A stretch of DNA of 64,000 bases from a virus (IMGVR_UViG_3300026291_000001:311-64310); one strand, 5' to 3'; positions 8,624 to 38,140 are shown, counted from the first letter of the stretch. Made by a program: numbers and translations. Notes: generated by a model from the letters alone, not told the origin.

Positions 8624-9625
8624 ATGTTCCTATTCAAACTATTATTGGCTTTAGTGCTACTAATTCCTCCTAACGCTTTTTCAATACCCTTTGCGCCAAC
8701 ATCGATCTGGAACAGGACAATCCCAAGCACGGCGGTCTATACCGATGTGAGCGATGCTTTATGGGGTTCTCCAGAAAATAGCCCGGCGCAAATCTATCTA
8801 GATTTAATCACTATTCTTTATGTCGATCCCCACTTAACGCCTGTCAATATCCGGCTTGATAACAACTGGGACTACCCTTACCGAACCCAGCCTGCTAGTG
8901 GAACGCTGTATCAAAGAAAACTTGGTGCGACCGCTGGCGTTAAAGAAAGCACCACGAATAGCAATGGCATAGTGGTTATTGTAGATCCACTAACAGGCCG
9001 AACTGATGAAGGCGGCGCTATGTTTCGAGATCAAGGCAGTAATGATTTGCTCATCTTTCAAGACAGACCCGCGCTTCATTACAACGTCTTTACGGGAAGT
9101 GGACTCTATGATGGCGTGAGAGGCTCCGGTATGTCTGGATTGGGCGGTGTCATTCGAGCTGGTGAGATCAATACGGTCATTCCTCATGCCATCGCGATCA
9201 TGACGAGTGGTCGCATCTATTCAAAAAACACCTGCTATATCTGGCCTGCGACACGTTGCGACAGTATTGCCAAGGATCCCACTTATGGTTACAAGGGGCC
9301 CAATAATGCCTATACCCTTGGCACTTTACTAGCGATACCTTCATCCATCAATTTAAGTACCATTAAGTTAAAGACCATGCAAGGCTATACTATTGCGATA
9401 GCCGCTCAGAAATATGGCATCTATGTGGTTGACTCCTCAGCAGCGACAGGTAATCGAGTGGGTCTTAGCATGGATTATCAGGCAGCTGTCACCGATTTAG
9501 GACTTGTCCAGGATCCAGTAACTACCTACCAATCCGTAGACGCTAAAAAAATCGATGGCAATGCTTTCCAGGCCGACATAATCGCCATCTTGCATAAGGT
9601 AAAAGCTGTAGTGAATAATAAATAA
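8624..9625 (+). CDS. secreted hypothetical protein (moron)
   Basis: N-terminal signal peptide MFLFKLLLALVLLIPPNAFS; bracketed by terminators. Confidence 0.65.
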   Translation: MFLFKLLLALVLLIPPNAFSIPFAPTSIWNRTIPSTAVYTDVSDALWGSPENSPAQIYLDLITILYVDPHLTPVNIRLDNNWDYPYRTQPASGTLYQRKLGATAGVKESTTNSNGIVVIVDPLTGRTDEGGAMFRDQGSNDLLIFQDRPALHYNVFTGSGLYDGVRGSGMSGLGGVIRAGEINTVIPHAIAIMTSGRIYSKNTCYIWPATRCDSIAKDPTYGYKGPNNAYTLGTLLAIPSSINLSTIKLKTMQGYTIAIAAQKYGIYVVDSSAATGNRVGLSMDYQAAVTDLGLVQDPVTTYQSVDAKKIDGNAFQADIIAILHKVKAVVNNK

Positions 9626-9637
9626 TTATTTATACAT

Positions 9638-9663
9638 CCCCGCTTAACTGCGGGCTTTTTTTT
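9638..9663 (+). terminator. rho-independent terminator
   Basis: CCCGC-ttaact-GCGGG followed by a T-run. Confidence 0.8.
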
Positions 9664-9740: not shown

Positions 9741-9825
9741 AGCGTAGCGAATCTATCCTAAACTCAGCAGTCCCCAGAAGAGCCCATCGCAGTAAAGCGG
9801 AGTATTGCCGAGCCAAGCACAGGCT
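9741..9825 (+). ncRNA. 5-nt periodic (WNY-NN) guide-like tract 1, 17 units
   Basis: AGCGT AGCGA ATCTA TCCTA AACTC AGCAG TCCCC AGAAG AGCCC ATCGC AGTAA AGCGG AGTAT TGCCG AGCCA AGCAC AGGCT. Confidence 0.8.
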
Positions 9826-9872
9826 ACAAAATAGCGTTTAGTCCATTGCAAAGTGGGCTAATCGGTATTCGT

Positions 9873-9952
9873 AGTAAATCCTAGCAGAGTCTTGCCATGC
9901 CGAGCCTTGCGAACCGAATTTCAGCCAAGCAAATCGCTGCGAACCAAAGTCT
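9873..9952 (+). ncRNA. 5-nt periodic tract 2, 16 units
   Basis: AGTAA ATCCT AGCAG AGTCT TGCCA TGCCG AGCCT TGCGA ACCGA ATTTC AGCCA AGCAA ATCGC TGCGA ACCAA AGTCT, then TTTAACC. Confidence 0.8.
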
Positions 9953-9974
9953 TTTAACCAAAAAAGGTATCTAC

Positions 9975-10586
9975 ATGAAACAAATAAGAATAAAACTAAC
10001 CGGAACCTCGCCACTATTGCTATCCAGCGATAAACTAGCCGACCCCCTTAATCCGTTAACGATACGTCATAAAGAACTTACCAGTAAACGCAAGAAAACC
10101 GAGGATGACCATAGATTAATAGCCCGTTCCCAATGGCAAGGGTTGTTATATTGGGATGACAAACTAGGCGTAGTGATGCCGACGCAAAATATCCGTGCGG
10201 CGATGATAGGCGGAGGAAAATTAAACAAGCTGGGCATGGCGCTCAAACGCGGAACATTGATGATGGAAGATCAGGTCCCTGTAGAGTATGGTAAAAAATT
10301 AACGATTGAACAGTTATGGGATGGCGATTATAAAGATGTACGTTCTGTAGTAGTCTCTCAAGCACGGGTCATGGCTTACCGACCAAAATTCCTTAATTGG
10401 TCATTAACTGTCGACTTCCAGTATGATGAAAATGTATTGGATGAAAACCAGATTATGCAATCCCTGGAAAATGCCGGGATGTTTGTGGGTATTGGCGGTT
10501 ACAGACCGGAGAAAGGCGGTGTTTTCGGGAGGTTTAAAGCCGAGAAAGTTGTCGATAAAGTACAAGAAACAAAAATCGCAGCGTAG
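9975..10586 (+). CDS. stand-alone Cas7-like RAMP protein (Vipr-like effector)
   Basis: RAMP motifs: beta1 KQIRIKLTGTSPLLL, VVMPTQNIRAAM, and a C-terminal G-rich loop GIGGYRPEKGGVFGRF; 203 aa; no other class 1 cas genes nearby. Confidence 0.8.
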   Translation: MKQIRIKLTGTSPLLLSSDKLADPLNPLTIRHKELTSKRKKTEDDHRLIARSQWQGLLYWDDKLGVVMPTQNIRAAMIGGGKLNKLGMALKRGTLMMEDQVPVEYGKKLTIEQLWDGDYKDVRSVVVSQARVMAYRPKFLNWSLTVDFQYDENVLDENQIMQSLENAGMFVGIGGYRPEKGGVFGRFKAEKVVDKVQETKIAA

Positions 10587-10633
10587 TTAAGCTCAGCGCA
10601 TCGAAGCTGACATAGCGCATCAAAGCAAAGTTT
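10575..10633 (+). ncRNA. 5-nt periodic tract 3, 12 units (one 4-nt unit), overlapping the RAMP stop codon
   Basis: ATCGC AGCGT AGTTA AGCTC AGCGC ATCGA AGCTG ACAT AGCGC ATCAA AGCAA AGTTT, then TTAAT. Confidence 0.75.
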
Positions 10634-10640
10634 TTAATAA

Positions 10641-10700
10641 TTCGCAGCAGTGTAGTACCCAGCGAATCGGAGCAGATCGAAGTATTGCAGAGCACAGTTT
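10641..10700 (+). ncRNA. 5-nt periodic tract 4, 12 units
   Basis: TTCGC AGCAG TGTAG TACCC AGCGA ATCGG AGCAG ATCGA AGTAT TGCAG AGCAC AGTTT, then TTTAACC. Confidence 0.78.
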
Positions 10701-10721
10701 TTTAACCCAAGGAGCACACTT

Positions 10722-11195
10722 ATGAACCCCACAAACGAAACACCCAATGTAACCCTCGATAAACTGTATATTTTAGCCGCCGAGGAAGCTGCTACTAAAT
10801 ATAATTATGGAGAGGTTATCAGTAAAAACTGGTTGCTGGAAAAGTTCTCAATCGAATTTCCACAACGAGGAACAAAAAAAGACTTTGAAGATGCCAGCTT
10901 TGAGTTTTTACAAAACATGGAAGGCTTTAAAAGCATTATGCTGGAAAAGTTCCAGATGTTTTTATACCCGGTTAAAGGGGTCGGCTATGAGATTGTCTAC
11001 CCTAAATACCAGTCTGATTTAGCAATGATACGCTTAAGGAATACAGTCTCTACCGAGATTAAAAGAGCCATCAATGTACTGACGCATGTTAACGAACAAC
11101 ATTTAACCCAGGACGATATACGGAAAAGGGATGAACACCAGGGAAAGATTGCAGCTCTAGCCGCGTTCTCGAATAAGCGACTTTCTAATAGTTGA
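10722..11195 (+). CDS. accessory protein of the RAMP/periodic-repeat locus, function unknown
   Basis: 157 aa, AGGAG RBS, embedded between tracts 4 and 5. Confidence 0.7.
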   Translation: MNPTNETPNVTLDKLYILAAEEAATKYNYGEVISKNWLLEKFSIEFPQRGTKKDFEDASFEFLQNMEGFKSIMLEKFQMFLYPVKGVGYEIVYPKYQSDLAMIRLRNTVSTEIKRAINVLTHVNEQHLTQDDIRKRDEHQGKIAALAAFSNKRLSNS

Positions 11196-11201
11196 TTTCT
11201 T

Positions 11202-11271
11202 AGCAAAGCAAAGCCAATCGGAGCTGACTAAAGCTGATCGGAGCGGAACCTAGTTGAGCCAAGCACAGGCT
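11202..11271 (+). ncRNA. 5-nt periodic tract 5, 14 units
   Basis: AGCAA AGCAA AGCCA ATCGG AGCTG ACTAA AGCTG ATCGG AGCGG AACCT AGTTG AGCCA AGCAC AGGCT. Confidence 0.8.
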
Positions 11272-11317
11272 ATCAATAGCGTATTGTCCATTGCGAAGTG
11301 GGCAATGCGGTATTATT

Positions 11318-11382
11318 ATCGATGCAATGCCGATCAAAGCCGAGCGGATTAAAGCGATGCACAGTGGAGCAAATCTCATCAC
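11318..11382 (+). ncRNA. 5-nt periodic tract 6, 13 units, interrupted by an IS (last 2 units at 12627-12636)
   Basis: ATCGA TGCAA TGCCG ATCAA AGCCG AGCGG ATTAA AGCGA TGCAC AGTGG AGCAA ATCTC ATCAC | IS | AGCAA AGTTT TTAAC. Confidence 0.78.
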
Positions 11383-12626
11383 CGGTTTTGCTCCAGGTTG
11401 CCCCTTGCTTTAGCTGGGTGAGGAATGGAGTGCTCTTGATTTTTATGTCTTGACATAGTGTTAAAACTCTCTATACTTGAAGATATGAAATTAGTAATAA
11501 ATCTTAAACTTAACCCGGATGTACAGCAGCAACGCGCACTTCAAGATACTCTTGAACGGTGCAATGCAGCTTGTAATTGGCTGTCTGAGGTTGCCTATAA
11601 AGAAAATACTATTAAACAATTTGCCCTCCAAAAATTAACATACCGGCAATGCCGTGAAGATTATGGTTTGACAGCTCAGGCCGCAATCCGTTGTATTTCT
11701 AAAGTTGCCGATGCCTACAAGCTTAAGGATGCCGATAAGACCCAGAGAAATTTCAGGAAGTGGTCGGCACAACCTTACGACGACCGTATCTTCCGGTTCG
11801 GCAAAGGCGACACCGTAAATTTGTGGACTATTGCTGGAAGGCAAACTATCCCGTTTGAGTGCGGTGAATACCAACGTAAGCTTATCCCTTACCGCAAAGG
11901 CGAAGTTGACTTGATGTTTATCAAAGCCAAATGGTATGCGTCTTGTGTTATTGATGTTGACGATGCCGAACCGTTTGCGCCAACTGGCGGCGTGTTGGGT
12001 GTTGATTTGGGTATTGTCCAGATTGCTTCCGATTCTGATGGAGAACAGTTTTCCGGAGACAAAATTGAAGTCGTGCGTAAGAGATACCATACACTCAGGC
12101 AACAGCTTCAAAAGAAAGGCACTAAATCGGCAAAGCGGCATTTGAAGCGCATTGCCAAAAACGAAGCTAATTTTCGTAGCGAAACCAACCACGTAATTTC
12201 TAAAAAACTTGTTGAGAAGGCTAAAGGCACTTTTCGCAGCATCAACCTTGAAGAACTCAAAGGCATACGCGAAAGGATTACGGTTAGGAAAAATCAACGG
12301 GCTAAACAAAGTGGATGGGCGTTCTATCAACTTCAGCAATACATTGCCTATAAATCCAAGCTTTGTGGCGTGACGGTCAATTTTGTTGACCCTCGCTACA
12401 CAAGCCAAAGCTGTAGCGTTTGTGGTCATACCGCAAAAGCCAACCGCAAAAGCCAAGCTGTTTTTGTTTGCAAAAGTTGTAACCATAATCAAAATGCCGA
12501 CATCAATGCGGCAAAAAATATAAGTTTAAGGGCGGCTGTCAATCCGCCTATCGTAGCTACCGATGACCCACATGGATTGTGGCGAGGTAAGTTACAAGCT
12601 CCGTCATTCATGACGGTGTAGTTGAC
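11383..12626 (+). mobile_element. IS200/IS605-family (IS1341-like, tnpB only) element
   Basis: Left end CGGTTTTGCTCC...CCCCTTGCTTTAGCTGGG after TCAC; right end CAAGCTCCGTCATTCATGACGGTGTAGTTGAC; no target duplication. Confidence 0.8.
11485..12621 (+). CDS. tnpB: TnpB RNA-guided endonuclease
   Basis: RuvC D-E-D intact (GVDLG, LEELKGIR, NADINAAKNI) plus a CxxC...CxxC zinc finger. Confidence 0.93.
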   Translation: MKLVINLKLNPDVQQQRALQDTLERCNAACNWLSEVAYKENTIKQFALQKLTYRQCREDYGLTAQAAIRCISKVADAYKLKDADKTQRNFRKWSAQPYDDRIFRFGKGDTVNLWTIAGRQTIPFECGEYQRKLIPYRKGEVDLMFIKAKWYASCVIDVDDAEPFAPTGGVLGVDLGIVQIASDSDGEQFSGDKIEVVRKRYHTLRQQLQKKGTKSAKRHLKRIAKNEANFRSETNHVISKKLVEKAKGTFRSINLEELKGIRERITVRKNQRAKQSGWAFYQLQQYIAYKSKLCGVTVNFVDPRYTSQSCSVCGHTAKANRKSQAVFVCKSCNHNQNADINAAKNISLRAAVNPPIVATDDPHGLWRGKLQAPSFMTV

Positions 12627-12711
12627 AGCAAAGTTTTTAACTAAAAATCTTATTTTTCGCAAAAATTAAGAGTATAGTCTAACTTAATCCCTCCCGCTGA
12701 TAAGAAGCGTT

Positions 12712-35087: not shown

Positions 35088-35413
35088 ACGCCACTGCCTT
35101 CGACACGCACGAATTTGTTAAGAAATTAAAAGGCGTAGGCTTCAGTGAGGAACAAGCCGAAGTCTTAACCGAACTGCAAAAAACCACCGTAGTCAACACA
35201 CTGGAACAGGCTCGGCATGATTACGAGCTGGATAATCTGGCTACCAAAAGGGATTTAAAAGAATTTGAACTGACGGTTAGTCTGCAATTTAAACAAGTTG
35301 ATGTAAAGATAGCCGAAACTAAAGCCGAATTAATCCGTTGGGTGGTAGCTGTTGGTTTATTACAGACAGTGATTATTACCGGCTTGATTTTGCGCTTGAC
35401 GGGGAAAATTTGA
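35084..35413 (+). CDS. DUF1640/CCDC90-like membrane-anchored coiled-coil protein (paralog 1 of 3)
   Basis: AFDTHEFVKKLKGVGFSEEQAE...LATKRDL...C-terminal TM. Confidence 0.85.
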   Translation: MNATAFDTHEFVKKLKGVGFSEEQAEVLTELQKTTVVNTLEQARHDYELDNLATKRDLKEFELTVSLQFKQVDVKIAETKAELIRWVVAVGLLQTVIITGLILRLTGKI

Positions 35414-37308
35414 TGATCATAGTCCGGAACTACGGCCTTTTACCTCCCGATAATTGGGGAGACGATTGTCACGAACAGTTATTCATGATGAGCAAGTTCT
35501 GGAATCAGCTTGTTGAAATAGACCACGCCGACCGTGAGCGTTATCGCGCTATTCTTACCGAAGACCCGGAAGTAGCAACGCTGGAAGTCCGTCTTTTTGA
35601 AACATCCGAACAACTGTTAAGTTTATCGACCGAGCGTAAAAAACTCAGATCATCCGCGCGTTCTAAAAATGTGGATGACGGCCTGCTTGTGGAGCGGATT
35701 AAAATCCTGCGCGAGACTGAGAAATCAATCAAGGCTCAACTAAAACTAAGTAGGGCAGCGAAGCGGGAAGCGTCAAAACCTGCCTTGGATGCGCTTAATG
35801 AAGCCCATAAAGCCACCGTTAAACAGGCTCGGAAAACATGCGGCTTATTCTGGAGTAATTACAATGCCGTCCTTGAATCCTACCAGGCAGCTCGTACCAA
35901 GGCCATGAAAATAGGCGTCGATCTGCGCTTTCGAAGGTTTGACGGGTCCGGTCGCTTTGTCAATCAGGTTCAGGGTGGTATCGATGTCTCGGAGTTCATG
36001 CACGGTACTTATAGTATGGCAGGTATTGATCCCGAACTATTTCCGGTCCTTGGACGTAGCGGGAAAGACCGGCCACGGTTGCATATAACAGCATTTACAG
36101 GCCATGACGCAGAGGGTAAGCACTTTCGGCGCACCTTAAGCTTTCCTGTTATCCTGCACCGTCCGATACCAGAAGAGGTTAACGGGTATCCGGTACGCAT
36201 AAAAACGCTGACCGTATCAAAGAAACGAGTCAGCGCCGGACACTTCGACTGGAGCTTGACATCCTCCACCAACTTAAAAAGCGTGGATTCCCAAGTACAG
36301 CCTTTCATGCCCGAAAGGGATGACTCTGAAAGTCATCTTACTTCACCCCAGCCCGGAGTTAATCCTGATGAGGTGAAAATACGCAGCAACAGCGTACCCA
36401 ACAAATTAAGTATAGTACAAAACGCTTTTATTTATAGGTTGACCATTACCGCGACGACTGATGGTGAAGCGATAGCTAATGCAAGCCCGGTAGCGGCAGG
36501 CGTTAACCTGGGCTGGAAGCGGGAAGGCCAAGCCTTACGGGTTGCCACGATTTACGATAGCAACGGCGATAGCGAACATTTTAGACTTCCGGCCACGTGG
36601 ACGACTGCCATGGATTACGCGGAATCGCTACGCGGAGATATTGATGAAGTTACCAACTTAATGTTTACGGCGTTACTGGCGCAAAATATTGAATCGGAAT
36701 TGCTGACTAAAGCCAAGCGCCCACACCCTGCCTTAATTAACCGCTTTGCACGTGAAGCTGAAATACGGCCCATGCTACAGGCACATATTATTACCAAGGA
36801 ACTGGTTATTGAATCTATAGCTATGCTACCGGCGCTCAATGCGCTACCGTGTTATCTAGCGTGGTCACGTTATAAAGAGCGCGAGTTTAGCGGTTTAAGA
36901 ACCCGGCTACTTGGGCAACGCAAAGACTTATACCGGAACATTGCGGCTACATTAGCCAGTCGTTATTCAGTTATTGCAATCGACAATGCCGACTATGCGA
37001 AAATGGCCCGGTTGGAATCACGGGGCGGCGAGGAAAATGACTTGTTAAAGATTGCCCGGACGAACCGGTTCAGGGTATCTCCTTCTGAGCTGCGTTTGTC
37101 GATTGAGCAGGCGATAGCCAAGAGCGGCGGCGTAGTCGAACGGGTCGGACAGCAAAACGAATGCGCGAATTGTGGCAGGCCCGATAAACAAGATACAATA
37201 ATCTGGAAATGTGGGCATTGCGGGGCGGTGTATGACCAAGATGAAAACATGGCGAAATTGTTGATTCGTGGGTATCTTCCTGAGCAGTCAAAGGGTGCGA
37301 CAGGGTAG
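35413..37308 (+). CDS. cas12m: Cas12m (type V-M / V-U1)-like effector, predicted nuclease-dead
   Basis: 631 aa; YGLLPPDNW, long REC coiled coil, FWSNYNAVL...LRFRRFDGSGRFVNQVQGG, RuvC GVNLGW / IAIDNAD / YDQDENMA, zinc finger CANCG...CGHCG; repeats start directly after the stop codon. Confidence 0.85.
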   Translation: MIIVRNYGLLPPDNWGDDCHEQLFMMSKFWNQLVEIDHADRERYRAILTEDPEVATLEVRLFETSEQLLSLSTERKKLRSSARSKNVDDGLLVERIKILRETEKSIKAQLKLSRAAKREASKPALDALNEAHKATVKQARKTCGLFWSNYNAVLESYQAARTKAMKIGVDLRFRRFDGSGRFVNQVQGGIDVSEFMHGTYSMAGIDPELFPVLGRSGKDRPRLHITAFTGHDAEGKHFRRTLSFPVILHRPIPEEVNGYPVRIKTLTVSKKRVSAGHFDWSLTSSTNLKSVDSQVQPFMPERDDSESHLTSPQPGVNPDEVKIRSNSVPNKLSIVQNAFIYRLTITATTDGEAIANASPVAAGVNLGWKREGQALRVATIYDSNGDSEHFRLPATWTTAMDYAESLRGDIDEVTNLMFTALLAQNIESELLTKAKRPHPALINRFAREAEIRPMLQAHIITKELVIESIAMLPALNALPCYLAWSRYKEREFSGLRTRLLGQRKDLYRNIAATLASRYSVIAIDNADYAKMARLESRGGEENDLLKIARTNRFRVSPSELRLSIEQAIAKSGGVVERVGQQNECANCGRPDKQDTIIWKCGHCGAVYDQDENMAKLLIRGYLPEQSKGATG

Positions 37309-37311
37309 TGG

Positions 37312-37413
37312 TAAAAATAGCCTGCACAGTGGCTTGGTGACTGTGACGGCAAGTAATATAACTTACCTTATGGATGGTAATAACAGCCTGCACAGTGGCA
37401 TGGTAATTGTGAC
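37312..37413 (+). CRISPR. mini CRISPR array 1 (2 repeats, 1 spacer)
   Basis: Cores 37319-37347 AGCCTGCACAGTGGCTTGGTGACTGTGAC and 37385-37413 AGCCTGCACAGTGGCATGGTAATTGTGAC; 37 nt between cores. Confidence 0.88.
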
Positions 37414-37435
37414 GTATGTACATCGGCATAAACCC

Positions 37436-37567: not shown

Positions 37568-38140
37568 ATGCTCAAATGTTATCATAAGATGAATATAGTC
37601 GAGGCCGCCAACAAGACCGAGATAGCGATGGTACATGGGTTACTGACTCGGAAGTACCCGCGCCTTTATGCTGATATTTGGAAAGTAGGCGTTAACCTGT
37701 CCTTGCGTATTTCTGATTTATTGGCGATAAAGTATGCCGATCTCAACGTCAGCAAACGTAGCCTAAAACTAATTGACAAAAAAACCAGTAAACCCAACGA
37801 AGTGCGCTTGAATAATACCGTGATGGATATTATTAACCAGCGCCGTAATGACTACCCCAATGATGAGTGGCTGTTTCAGGTCCACAGTTCTCGCGCTAAC
37901 AACAAACCTATTTCCAGAGTAGCGGTCGCCGTGGCTTTTAAAAAAGCGGGCGAACAACTAGGCTTAACCATCAATACCCATAGTATGCGTAAATCACGCG
38001 GCATGGCTTTATTCGAGGATGGTGTTCCCGTGGAAATGATAGCCAAGGTATTGAATCATACAAATCCCTTGCATACGTTAAGGTATTTAGGGATTACGAA
38101 AGAAAAAGTGTTAGCAACTTATGATCTGTATGAACTGTAA
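37568..38140 (+). CDS. tyrosine recombinase (catalytic domain only; resolvase/integrase-like)
   Basis: LSLRISDLL, KKTSK, THSMRKSRG, LNHTN...TLRYLG: R-K-H-R-H-Y set present. Confidence 0.9.
   Translation: MLKCYHKMNIVEAANKTEIAMVHGLLTRKYPRLYADIWKVGVNLSLRISDLLAIKYADLNVSKRSLKLIDKKTSKPNEVRLNNTVMDIINQRRNDYPNDEWLFQVHSSRANNKPISRVAVAVAFKKAGEQLGLTINTHSMRKSRGMALFEDGVPVEMIAKVLNHTNPLHTLRYLGITKEKVLATYDLYEL

What the first reader, a model, noticed from the sequence alone, without database searches (positions are those of the whole stretch)
9741..12640. VIPR-like system: lone Cas7/RAMP gene interleaved with six 5-nt-periodic guide tracts
Seen: six tracts of 12-17 units (about 86 units in total) with strict 5-nt phase. 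Each unit is a constrained triplet (first base always A/T, third base pyrimidine in all but about four units, AGC most common) plus a freely varying dinucleotide. The tracts flank a 203-aa protein with RAMP motifs (TGTSPLLL, PTQNIRAAM, GIGGYRPEKGGVFGRF) and a 157-aa partner. There are no cas1/2/3/5/6/8/10 genes and no conventional repeat-spacer array. Established: Cas7 RAMPs polymerise along guide RNA with a fixed nucleotide step. As I recall (not verified here), phage VIPR systems use a Cas7-ancestral protein and RNAs of alternating GGY/NN in which the NN pairs specify a gapped DNA target. Inference: this is a phage-encoded RNA-guided system with six guides, one protein subunit per 5-nt unit, probably acting against competing phages or host genes.
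Basis: partly seen in the sequence, partly recalled or inferred. Interest (0 to 1): 0.93.

Follow-up and report, generated by a model that had tools for sequence, protein, structure and literature searches.

The report
Phage VIPR system with AGC-type guides
This soil phage carries a VIPR system, a CRISPR-like RNA-guided DNA-silencing system first described in 2026. It belongs to a sub-family whose guide RNAs use an AGC scaffold instead of the published GGY, and whose protein has lost both residues that read the first G.

Summary
Window 9741-12641 holds six 5-nt-phased tracts around a 203-aa RAMP gene and a 157-aa partner. Runs this long occur nowhere else in the window and exceed every shuffle.

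The protein matches the solved SUSP1 Vipr protein (PDB 36pp, E 3e-40) and its model has a Cas7/Csm3 fold. The partner is homologous to the gene at the vap1 position in Felixounavirus phages and phage LESphi2. This is a type II-like VIPR locus, a kind published in 2026 preprints and already met by this scan on other DNA.

What differs is the constant triplet. It is AGC-like (position 1 A/T, never G) rather than GGY. Across about 130 related loci, Vipr proteins with H17 plus D/E177, the two G1 contacts in the SUSP1 structure, sit beside GGY repeats. A single clade with S/A/C/V17 plus G177, which includes this window, sits beside AGC repeats. That is one evolutionary event, so it is suggestive only.

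Two guides end in a tail with strongly covarying hairpins. A TnpB-only IS element interrupts guide 6.

No natural target of the six guides was found. A relative's AGC-type guide matches rival vipr genes under the published 1-nt-skip rule.

No expression data exist.

The parts
9639..9662 (+). Intrinsic terminator of the upstream tail-like gene (8624-9625). It marks the 5' border of the VIPR locus.
   Evidence: Terminator scan finds a 5-bp G+C stem followed by a T-run. The upstream gene matches phrog_17388, minor tail protein.
9741..9820 (+). vrRNA-1 repeat tract of 16 units. The last two units (AGCca AGCac) are shared with vrRNA-5.
   Evidence: Phase parse.
9821..9882 (+). Structured 3' tail of vrRNA-1 (tail A copy 1). 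H0 pairs 9823-9826 with 9832-9835. H1 pairs 9838-9845 with 9854-9861. A weaker third stem lies at 9864-9881.
   Evidence: In a 24-sequence alignment 98.5% of cells are paired and all 8 H1 pairs covary. Fold z-score is -3.9.
9883..9959 (+). vrRNA-2: 13 units (9883-9947) followed by the short T-rich end motif 'tail B' (AAAGTCTTTTAAC).
   Evidence: Tail B has no predicted structure. The same motif ends arrays in relatives L098 and L165.
9975..10586 (+). vipr gene, 203 aa (P0001). RAMP protein with S17, K33, R136 and the G-loop GIGGYRPEKGG.
   Evidence: PDB 36pp_D 'SUSP1 Vipr protein', E 3e-40. phrog_4652. AlphaFold pLDDT 87 and Csm3/Cas7 fold matches. Residue mapping.
10580..10638 (+). vrRNA-3: about 9 units starting inside the last vipr codons, with one 4-nt unit at 10610-10613, then tail B at 10624-10638.
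10641..10705 (+). vrRNA-4: 10 units followed by tail B at 10691-10705.
10722..11195 (+). vap gene, 157 aa (P0002), homologue of the gene at the vap1 position in type II VIPR loci.
   Evidence: BLASTP E 7e-15 to Andreotti gp55 and E 9e-24 to LESphi2 P21_8. phrog_5926. Homologues follow vipr in L004, L085 and L165.
11197..11266 (+). vrRNA-5 repeat tract of 14 units.
11267..11332 (+). Structured 3' tail of vrRNA-5 (tail A copy 2). H1 pairs 11283-11290 with 11299-11306. H2 pairs 11309-11314 with 11326-11331.
   Evidence: Relative to copy 1, H1 carries compensatory changes.
11333..11382 (+). vrRNA-6, 5' part: 10 units, cut off by the IS element.
11383..12626 (+). TnpB-only IS200/IS605-family element inserted in vrRNA-6; borders are inferred. 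tnpB spans 11458/11485-12621. A promoter-like site lies at 11450-11477 and a right-end hairpin at 12597-12612.
   Evidence: Pfam Cas12f1-like_TNB and OrfB_IS605. phrog_506 transposase. Promoter scan 11 of 12. Hairpin fold. Weak HgcC/omega-RNA-like Rfam match at 12528-12641, E 0.16. Removing exactly this span rejoins the tract to its tail B, but the borders were set by that criterion.
12627..12641 (+). Tail B of vrRNA-6 (AGCAAAGTTTTTAAC), separated from its tract by the IS element.
   Evidence: Exact motif match.

Best explanation
The locus is a type II-like VIPR system carried by a tailed phage from soil.

Proposed mechanism:
- The six tracts are transcribed on the + strand as vrRNAs.
- Vipr (203 aa) polymerises along each vrRNA, one protomer per 5-nt unit. 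It sequesters the constant triplet and presents the two variable bases.
- The concatenated NN dinucleotides pair with double-stranded DNA that has one skipped base between pairs (NNx). The skipped base is usually the codon wobble position. Binding silences genes of a competing mobile element, and Vap assists.

The locus belongs to a monophyletic sub-family in which the constant triplet is AGC, relaxed here to [A/T][G/T]Y, instead of GGY. The two residues that hydrogen-bond G1 in SUSP1 Vipr (H17, D177) are replaced by S/A/C/V and G. I infer that this replacement re-specifies position 1 from G to A.

Shown here: homology, fold, repeat anatomy, the clade-wide association and tail covariation.
Inferred: transcription, filament assembly, DNA targeting, and that residues 17 and 177 cause the base switch.
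For: - Sequence and fold. P0001 matches PDB 36pp_D 'SUSP1 Vipr protein' at E 3e-40 over residues 1-190. It is 41-47% identical to proteins of Felixounavirus phages, LESphi2 and a Gordonia phage that lie beside GGY/NN tracts. The AlphaFold model has pLDDT 87, and the top 50 PDB fold matches are all Csm3/Cas7.
- Partner gene. Vap is homologous to the gene at the vap1 position.
- Repeats. Phased tracts far exceed chance. A relative with 90% protein identity (L165) has the same layout and the same relaxed triplets but entirely different NN dinucleotides. This is the pattern expected of programmable guides.
- Conserved functional residues. K33, R138, the aromatic residue at 178 and R179 (SUSP1 numbering) are all kept.
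- Residue and repeat association. All 36 loci with S/A/C/V17 plus G177 have A at triplet position 1 (46-93%). About 80 loci with H17 plus D/E177 have G. The A1 loci form one clade with SH-aLRT 97. The structure paper names H17 and D177 as the G1 contacts. The discovery paper states that perturbing the GGY motifs abolished silencing, and its supplementary legend lists GGY>AGY among the substitutions tested.
- Tails. The tail hairpins covary: 10 of 14 pairs show compensatory changes, and the covariation score is 0.66 against 0.19 for shuffles and 0.10 or less for slid controls. G-U pairs fit + strand RNA.
- Targeting rule in the clade. An AGC-type guide of relative L085 matches codon positions 1-2 of KRGTIMLED in the vipr genes of L112-L116. 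The match is 18/18 over nine units and lies in frame 0. The same guide matches its own vipr at only 15/22.
- Setting. The genome is a 64.9-kb virus record with tail, portal and head-closure genes.
Against: - No RNA data exist. The only sequencing runs that hold the locus are soil-metagenome DNA.
- No convincing promoter lies upstream of tract 1.
- No natural target was found for any of the six guides in the phage genome, in 638 kb of related loci, or by seed searches of IMG/VR.
- The triplets are more degenerate here than in most relatives. Tract 3 has a phase break and guide 6 is interrupted by an IS element, so part of the locus may be impaired.
- The residue and base association rests on a single evolutionary event. 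The tree allows only one independent pair.
- In distant homologues (24-32% identity) the alignment places G at 177 beside GGY-like repeats. If that alignment is correct, residue 177 alone is not a universal predictor.
Confidence: 0.85

Rival explanations
1. The locus is a decaying, no longer functional VIPR remnant. The degenerate triplets, the phase break in tract 3 and the IS element in guide 6 would be signs of erosion.
For: Triplets are less uniform than in relatives: A 74-85% and G 65-70% here, against 80-90% in most AGC-clade loci. There is a 4-nt unit in tract 3. An apparently intact TnpB element lies inside guide 6.
Against: vipr and vap are full-length and keep all conserved functional residues. 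The 90%-identical relative L165 shows the same relaxed W-K-Y pattern with completely different NN. So the relaxation is a lineage property under continuing guide turnover, not random decay. Five of the six guides are uninterrupted.
Confidence: 0.08
2. The phased tracts act at the DNA level, for example as iteron-like binding sites for Vap or Vipr or as curvature elements, and are not guide RNAs.
For: No transcript evidence is available. Vap-family proteins are predicted DNA binders in the literature.
Against: The tails next to the tracts show strand-specific RNA covariation that includes G-U pairs. The protein is a close homologue of one solved in complex with such RNA. Tracts always lie on the vipr strand in relatives. 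The NN dinucleotides turn over completely between close relatives, which does not fit fixed protein-binding sites.
Confidence: 0.03
3. The locus is a minimal CRISPR-Cas (class 1) derivative, with a lone Cas7 that uses crRNA-like guides and contiguous pairing, rather than a VIPR system.
For: The fold matches are Csm3/Cas7. The same phage carries a Cas12-like gene with a two-repeat array.
Against: There is no repeat-spacer array and no other cas gene at the locus. Sequence similarity is to Vipr (E 3e-40) and not to any Cas7. The period is 5 nt, not 6 nt plus spacers. A clade member's guide matches its target only with gapped NNx spacing, in frame with codons.
Confidence: 0.02

Closest known systems
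Type II VIPR systems of Escherichia phage SUSP1 and the Pseudomonas fulva prophage (bioRxiv 10.64898/2026.04.26.720920; structures in 10.64898/2026.04.26.720927, PDB 36pp)
   Same: Homologous Vipr (41-47% identity to the clade, E 3e-40 to the solved chain). Homologous downstream vap gene. Phage-borne two-gene locus. vrRNAs on the vipr strand both upstream and downstream. 9-16 units of constant triplet plus hypervariable NN. A conserved structured 3' tail. K33, R138, the aromatic residue at 178 and R179 are conserved.
   Different: The constant triplet is AGC-like, with position 1 A/T and never G. The G1-contacting H17 and D177 are S and G. The tail has covarying hairpins H0 and H1 plus a putative H2, with no sequence similarity to the SUSP1 pseudoknot tail. 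Four guides end in a short unstructured T-rich motif. A guide lies between vipr and vap. A TnpB IS element sits inside one guide.
Non-canonical VIPR arrays reported from entropy periodicity (bioRxiv 10.64898/2026.10.21.760802: GAC/NN, CAC/NN, WGT/NN, TGH/NN) and the YNNNG/NNNNG variants mentioned in the discovery paper
   Same: 5-nt arrays with a non-GGY constant triplet next to Vipr-like proteins. WGT/NN resembles the W-G-Y pattern seen here.
   Different: AGC/NN is not named in the searchable text of either paper, and the figures are not held. No link between scaffold base and the residues at positions 17 and 177 is described there.
Class 1 CRISPR Cas7 backbone (Csm3, type III-A; Cas7 of type VII)
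   Same: RAMP fold with RRM core, G-loop and thumb. According to the structure paper, both polymerise along a guide with periodic base flipping.
   Different: No CRISPR array and no Cas5, Cas6, Cas10 or Cas11. The period is 5 nt with three bases sequestered, against 6 nt with one base flipped. Sequence identity is only 8-16%.

Membership tests
VIPR (Viral Interference Programmable Repeat) system | Vipr protein: a single-RRM RAMP with G-loop and thumb, homologous to SUSP1 Vipr / X1U2U4 | tested here: met
   phmmer hit to PDB 36pp_D 'SUSP1 Vipr protein', E 3e-40 over residues 1-190. Foldseek top 50 are all Csm3/Cas7 RAMPs. G-loop is GIGGYRPEKGG.
VIPR (Viral Interference Programmable Repeat) system | Minimal locus of vipr plus an accessory vap gene, with no CRISPR array and no other cas genes | tested here: met
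   ORF list and Pfam/PHROG scans. Vap homology.
VIPR (Viral Interference Programmable Repeat) system | Flanking intergenic tandem 5-nt repeats, 9-16 units, with a conserved trinucleotide alternating with a hypervariable NN | tested here: met
   Six tracts of 9-16 units. NN dinucleotides are entirely different in the 90%-identical relative L165.
VIPR (Viral Interference Programmable Repeat) system | Constant trinucleotide is GGY (canonical consensus) | tested here: not met
   Position 1 is A 62 / T 11 / G 0 in 73 units. AGC is the commonest triplet. The discovery paper allows 'a related consensus' (YNNNG, NNNNG), so this excludes only the canonical form.
VIPR (Viral Interference Programmable Repeat) system | Invariable, structured 3' tail after the repeat tract | tested here: met
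   vrRNA-1 and vrRNA-5 end in a tail conserved across the clade, with covarying stems. vrRNA-2, -3, -4 and -6 have only a short conserved T-rich motif with no predicted structure.
VIPR (Viral Interference Programmable Repeat) system | Encoded mainly by phages or proviruses | tested here: met
   Virus record with a single 64.9-kb contig. Tail fibre, portal and head-closure genes are present.
VIPR (Viral Interference Programmable Repeat) system | vrRNAs are expressed and co-purify with Vipr | not testable with these tools
   Only soil-metagenome DNA runs hold the locus.
VIPR (Viral Interference Programmable Repeat) system | NN dinucleotides match natural targets under the 1-nt-skip rule (at least 80% NN match), with no self-target | tested here: inconclusive
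   There is no self-target. No significant target was found for the window's six guides. One 21/24 match to a Klebsiella P2-like prophage tail gene is probably chance. Within the clade, guide 5 of L085 matches rival vipr genes 18/18 over nine units, in frame.
VIPR type II | A vap1-type accessory gene directly downstream of vipr, and Vipr phylogenetically close to the SUSP1 / P. fulva clades | tested here: met
   Vap homology at E 7e-15 and 9e-24. In the tree the AGC clade sits among the loci related to LESphi2 and the Felixounavirus phages. The paper's own type assignment for this clade could not be read because the figures are not held.
CRISPR-Cas class 1 | Repeat-spacer array plus a multi-subunit cas operon (Cas5, Cas7 and a large subunit) | tested here: not met
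   None is present at the locus. The only repeat pair in the phage, at 37309-37414, follows a Cas12-like gene 25 kb away.

The most novel reading that the evidence does not exclude
The AGC clade is a naturally orthogonal VIPR scaffold code. Replacing the two G1-reading residues (H17 to S/A, D177 to G) re-specifies the first scaffold base from G to A. The window's sub-lineage has relaxed the code further, to [A/T][G/T]Y. If so, scaffold specificity could be rewritten with two residues. AGC-type and GGY-type systems could then coexist in one cell without sharing guides, which would also block hijacking by rival 'solo' vrRNAs.
Probability: 0.45. Interest if true: 0.6.

Novelty: new variant of a known kind. 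Interest (0 to 1): 0.5.

Why it matters
VIPR was described only in 2026, and all mechanistic work uses GGY guides. The discovery paper reports that perturbing the GGY motifs abolishes silencing, and GGY>AGY is among the substitutions it lists.

A natural clade runs on AGC and has lost exactly the two residues that read G1. About 57 of 125 homologues recovered here belong to it, and 36 of its loci were inspected. This gives a two-residue hypothesis for how the protein chooses its RNA scaffold, and the hypothesis can be tested directly. It also points to orthogonal VIPR pairs for multiplexed silencing. It suggests one way phages could escape guide-stealing by rivals.

The vipr-targeting guide in relative L085 extends the 1-nt-skip rule and VIPR-against-VIPR conflict beyond the enterobacterial systems studied so far.

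Finally, this phage combines a VIPR locus, a Cas12-like gene with a mini-array, and a TnpB element that sits inside a vrRNA.

Tried and rejected
- Self-targeting. The six guides were scanned against the 64.9-kb phage genome with 0-3 skipped bases. Nothing exceeded shuffled guides, apart from the trivial skip-3 self loci.
- Targets in 638 kb of fetched loci. The best match was T1 at 24/32 in L035, against a shuffle maximum of 22. That is under the 80% criterion.
- IMG/VR seed searches. A T1 10-unit seed gave 0 hits. 8-unit seeds for T2, T5 and T6 gave 7-14 hits each, and all extended at chance level.
- T4 9-unit seed. It gave 12 hits, 10 of them the same site in P2-like Klebsiella prophage tail genes (21/24, with the skipped base at the wobble position). 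I judge this probably chance, because the sequence is highly redundant in the database, the extension matched only 3 of 6 bases, and GC content and habitat do not fit.
- Rfam. No hammerhead or other family matches the tails.
- Megablast of 25 kb of the window against GenBank phages found no close relative.
- The search for related loci with the single protein found only one locus per collection. An alignment query was needed.
- Independent-contrast test of residue 177 against base 1. Only one independent pair exists, so no statistical support is possible.
- RNAfold offers an alternative in which the flanks of H1 pair with each other instead of forming H0 and H2. This is not resolved.
- Complex prediction was not used, because no protein-protein binding claim is made.
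Full report
**Observation.** The + strand between 9741 and 11382 holds long runs of 5-nt units. In each unit the first base is A or T, the third is a pyrimidine, and the last two vary freely.
- In 73 conservatively parsed units the triplets are AGC 33, ATC 12, AGT 9, TGC 7 and others 12. Position 1 is never G or C, and positions 4 and 5 are near uniform.
- Chains of 13-18 units occur nowhere else in the window. In 200 Markov shuffles the longest chain averaged 8.1 units and never exceeded 12.
Part of each tract end belongs to conserved tails, tract 3 has one 4-nt unit, and tract 6 is split by a TnpB element. Its end motif reappears at 12627-12641.

**Proteins.**
- The 203-aa ORF (9975-10586, P0001) has no Pfam hit. 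It matches PDB 36pp chain D, 'SUSP1 Vipr protein', at E 3e-40 over residues 1-190, and it matches phrog_4652.
- By tblastn it is 41-47% identical to unannotated proteins of Felixounavirus phages, Pseudomonas phage LESphi2 and Gordonia phages. Each of those lies beside GGY/NN tracts on the same strand.
- An AlphaFold model built on a 30-sequence alignment has pLDDT 87. Its 50 best PDB fold matches are all Csm3/Cas7 RAMPs.
- The 157-aa ORF (P0002) is homologous to the gene directly downstream of vipr in phage Andreotti (E 7e-15) and LESphi2 (E 9e-24). That is the vap1 position of type II VIPR loci.

**What is known.** VIPR systems were described in two April 2026 preprints.
- Vipr is a RAMP that polymerises on vrRNAs made of GGY/NN repeats. 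It sequesters GGY and presents NN.
- The NN dinucleotides pair with DNA that has one skipped base between pairs, and binding silences competing phages and satellites.
- The structure paper names H17 and D177 as the hydrogen-bond contacts of G1. R138 and W178 hold G2, and R179 contributes to the Y3 pocket.
- The discovery paper states that perturbing the GGY motifs abolished silencing, and its supplementary legend lists GGY>AGY among the substitutions tested.
- Later preprints report vrRNAs aimed at rivals' vipr genes and 21 clusters of non-canonical repeats such as GAC, CAC, WGT and TGH plus NN. AGC is not named in any searchable text.
- This scan has met VIPR arrays before on other genomes, including a CGC-type.

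**The variant.**
- In an alignment numbered on the SUSP1-like protein, the window's Vipr has S17 and G177. K33, R138, an aromatic residue at 178 and R179 are kept.
- Among 125 homologues, 57 carry S/A/C/V17 with G177. All proteins at about 53% identity or more to the window protein are of this kind. The others carry H17 with D or E at 177.
- I fetched about 130 loci, detected 5-nt periodic regions de novo and rotated them into register.
- Every locus with H17 plus D/E177 has G at triplet position 1. L049-L051 look different only because of a register artefact. Every one of 36 loci with S/A/C/V17 plus G177 has A there (46-93%). These include the window and a 38%-identical pair with V17.
- In a maximum-likelihood tree of 62 representatives, the A1 loci form one clade with SH-aLRT 97. 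So the switch happened once and cannot be tested by independent contrasts.
- The association fits the structural contacts but is not proof.
- In distant homologues (24-32% identity) the alignment puts G at 177 beside GGY-like repeats. That alignment is unreliable.

**Guide behaviour.**
- A relative with 90% protein identity (L165) has the same layout, the same relaxed triplets (AGC, ATC, TGC, TCC) and the same tails, but entirely different NN dinucleotides. The relaxed scaffold is therefore a lineage trait, and the NN positions turn over as guides should.
- Most other clade members use strict AGC.
- I tested 107 clade guides against all clade loci. One, the fifth vrRNA of L085, matches codon positions 1-2 of the conserved KRGTIMLED segment of vipr in L112-L116.
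- That match is 18/18 over nine units and 19-20/22 overall, on the + strand in frame 0. The same guide matches its own vipr at only 15/22 and the window's vipr at 16/22.
- My rough estimate of the chance probability, after multiple testing, is about 3e-3.
- This is the published behaviour of vipr-targeting guides, and it supports the 1-nt-skip rule for AGC-type guides.

**Tails.**
- vrRNA-1 and vrRNA-5 end in a conserved element, AGGCT followed by hairpins.
- In a 24-sequence alignment of clade tails, 98.5% of cells pair. Ten of 14 pairs have compensatory changes, including all eight pairs of H1.
- The covariation score is 0.66, against 0.19 for shuffles and 0.10 or less for slid controls.
- G-U pairs fit transcription of the + strand.
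- RNAfold also finds an alternative pairing of the flanks, so H0 and H2 are less certain than H1.
- No Rfam family matches.
- The other four guides end in a short T-rich motif (AGCAAAGTTTTTAAC and variants). Relatives carry the same motif at array ends.

**Targets and expression.**
- None of the window's six guides has a self-target.
- None has a significant match in the fetched loci or in IMG/VR seed searches.
- The T4 seed hit a tail gene of P2-like Klebsiella prophages at 21/24. Database redundancy, a chance-level extension and the mismatch in GC content and habitat make this probably spurious.
- Only soil-metagenome DNA runs hold the locus. No convincing sigma-70 promoter precedes tract 1.

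**Context.**
- The genome is a single 64.9-kb virus contig with 44% GC. It encodes tail-fibre, baseplate, portal and head-closure genes and has no close relative in GenBank phages.
- The VIPR locus sits between a tail-like gene and a head-closure-like gene.
- An apparently intact TnpB-only IS element lies inside guide 6, at about 11383-12626.

**Verdict.** The kind is already known. The new points are:
- the AGC scaffold clade;
- the coupled loss of both G1-reading residues;
- the covarying hairpin tail;
- the IS-interrupted guide.

All functional steps for this locus remain inferred.

Noticed in passing
window 11383-12641: If the IS element ends at 12626, the omega-RNA guide of its TnpB would be the vrRNA end motif AGCAAAGTTTTTAAC. 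That motif also ends guides 3 and 4, and occurs in relatives. One RNA-guided element may therefore home into the guide array of another. The borders and the TAM are not established.
   Followed up: partly
window 35338-37414: A 656-aa protein has a weak Cas12f1-like TNB domain (E 9e-5). It is followed at once by two 40-nt direct repeats spaced 66 nt apart, which looks like a one-spacer mini-CRISPR. A short phage-integrase-family ORF lies at 37568-38140.
   Followed up: partly
L085:2412-2471 against L112-L116 vipr, codon offset 270: A vrRNA of one AGC-type VIPR phage spells codon positions 1-2 of the conserved KRGTIMLED segment of rival vipr genes. It mismatches its own gene. This looks like VIPR-against-VIPR conflict in environmental (IMG/VR and JGI metagenome) phage contigs.
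   Followed up: yes
L086, L091-L097, L107 (IMG/VR and JGI contigs): Some AGC-clade phages carry arrays of 8-10 vrRNAs upstream of vipr. Each has 9-12 AGC units and a near-identical 68-nt tail with a GGUA-UUCG-UACC hairpin. Spacing is regular at 105-125 nt, much like a CRISPR array.
   Followed up: partly
Only the Pfam hit was seen here.
   Followed up: no
L174:3232-3267 (Klebsiella P2-like prophages, ST16-OXA48phi5.4-like): Guide 4 of the window matches a tail-protein gene at 21/24 NN positions, with the skipped bases on the wobble position of the minus-strand gene. I judge it probably chance, but it formally passes the 80% criterion used in the VIPR paper.
   Followed up: partly
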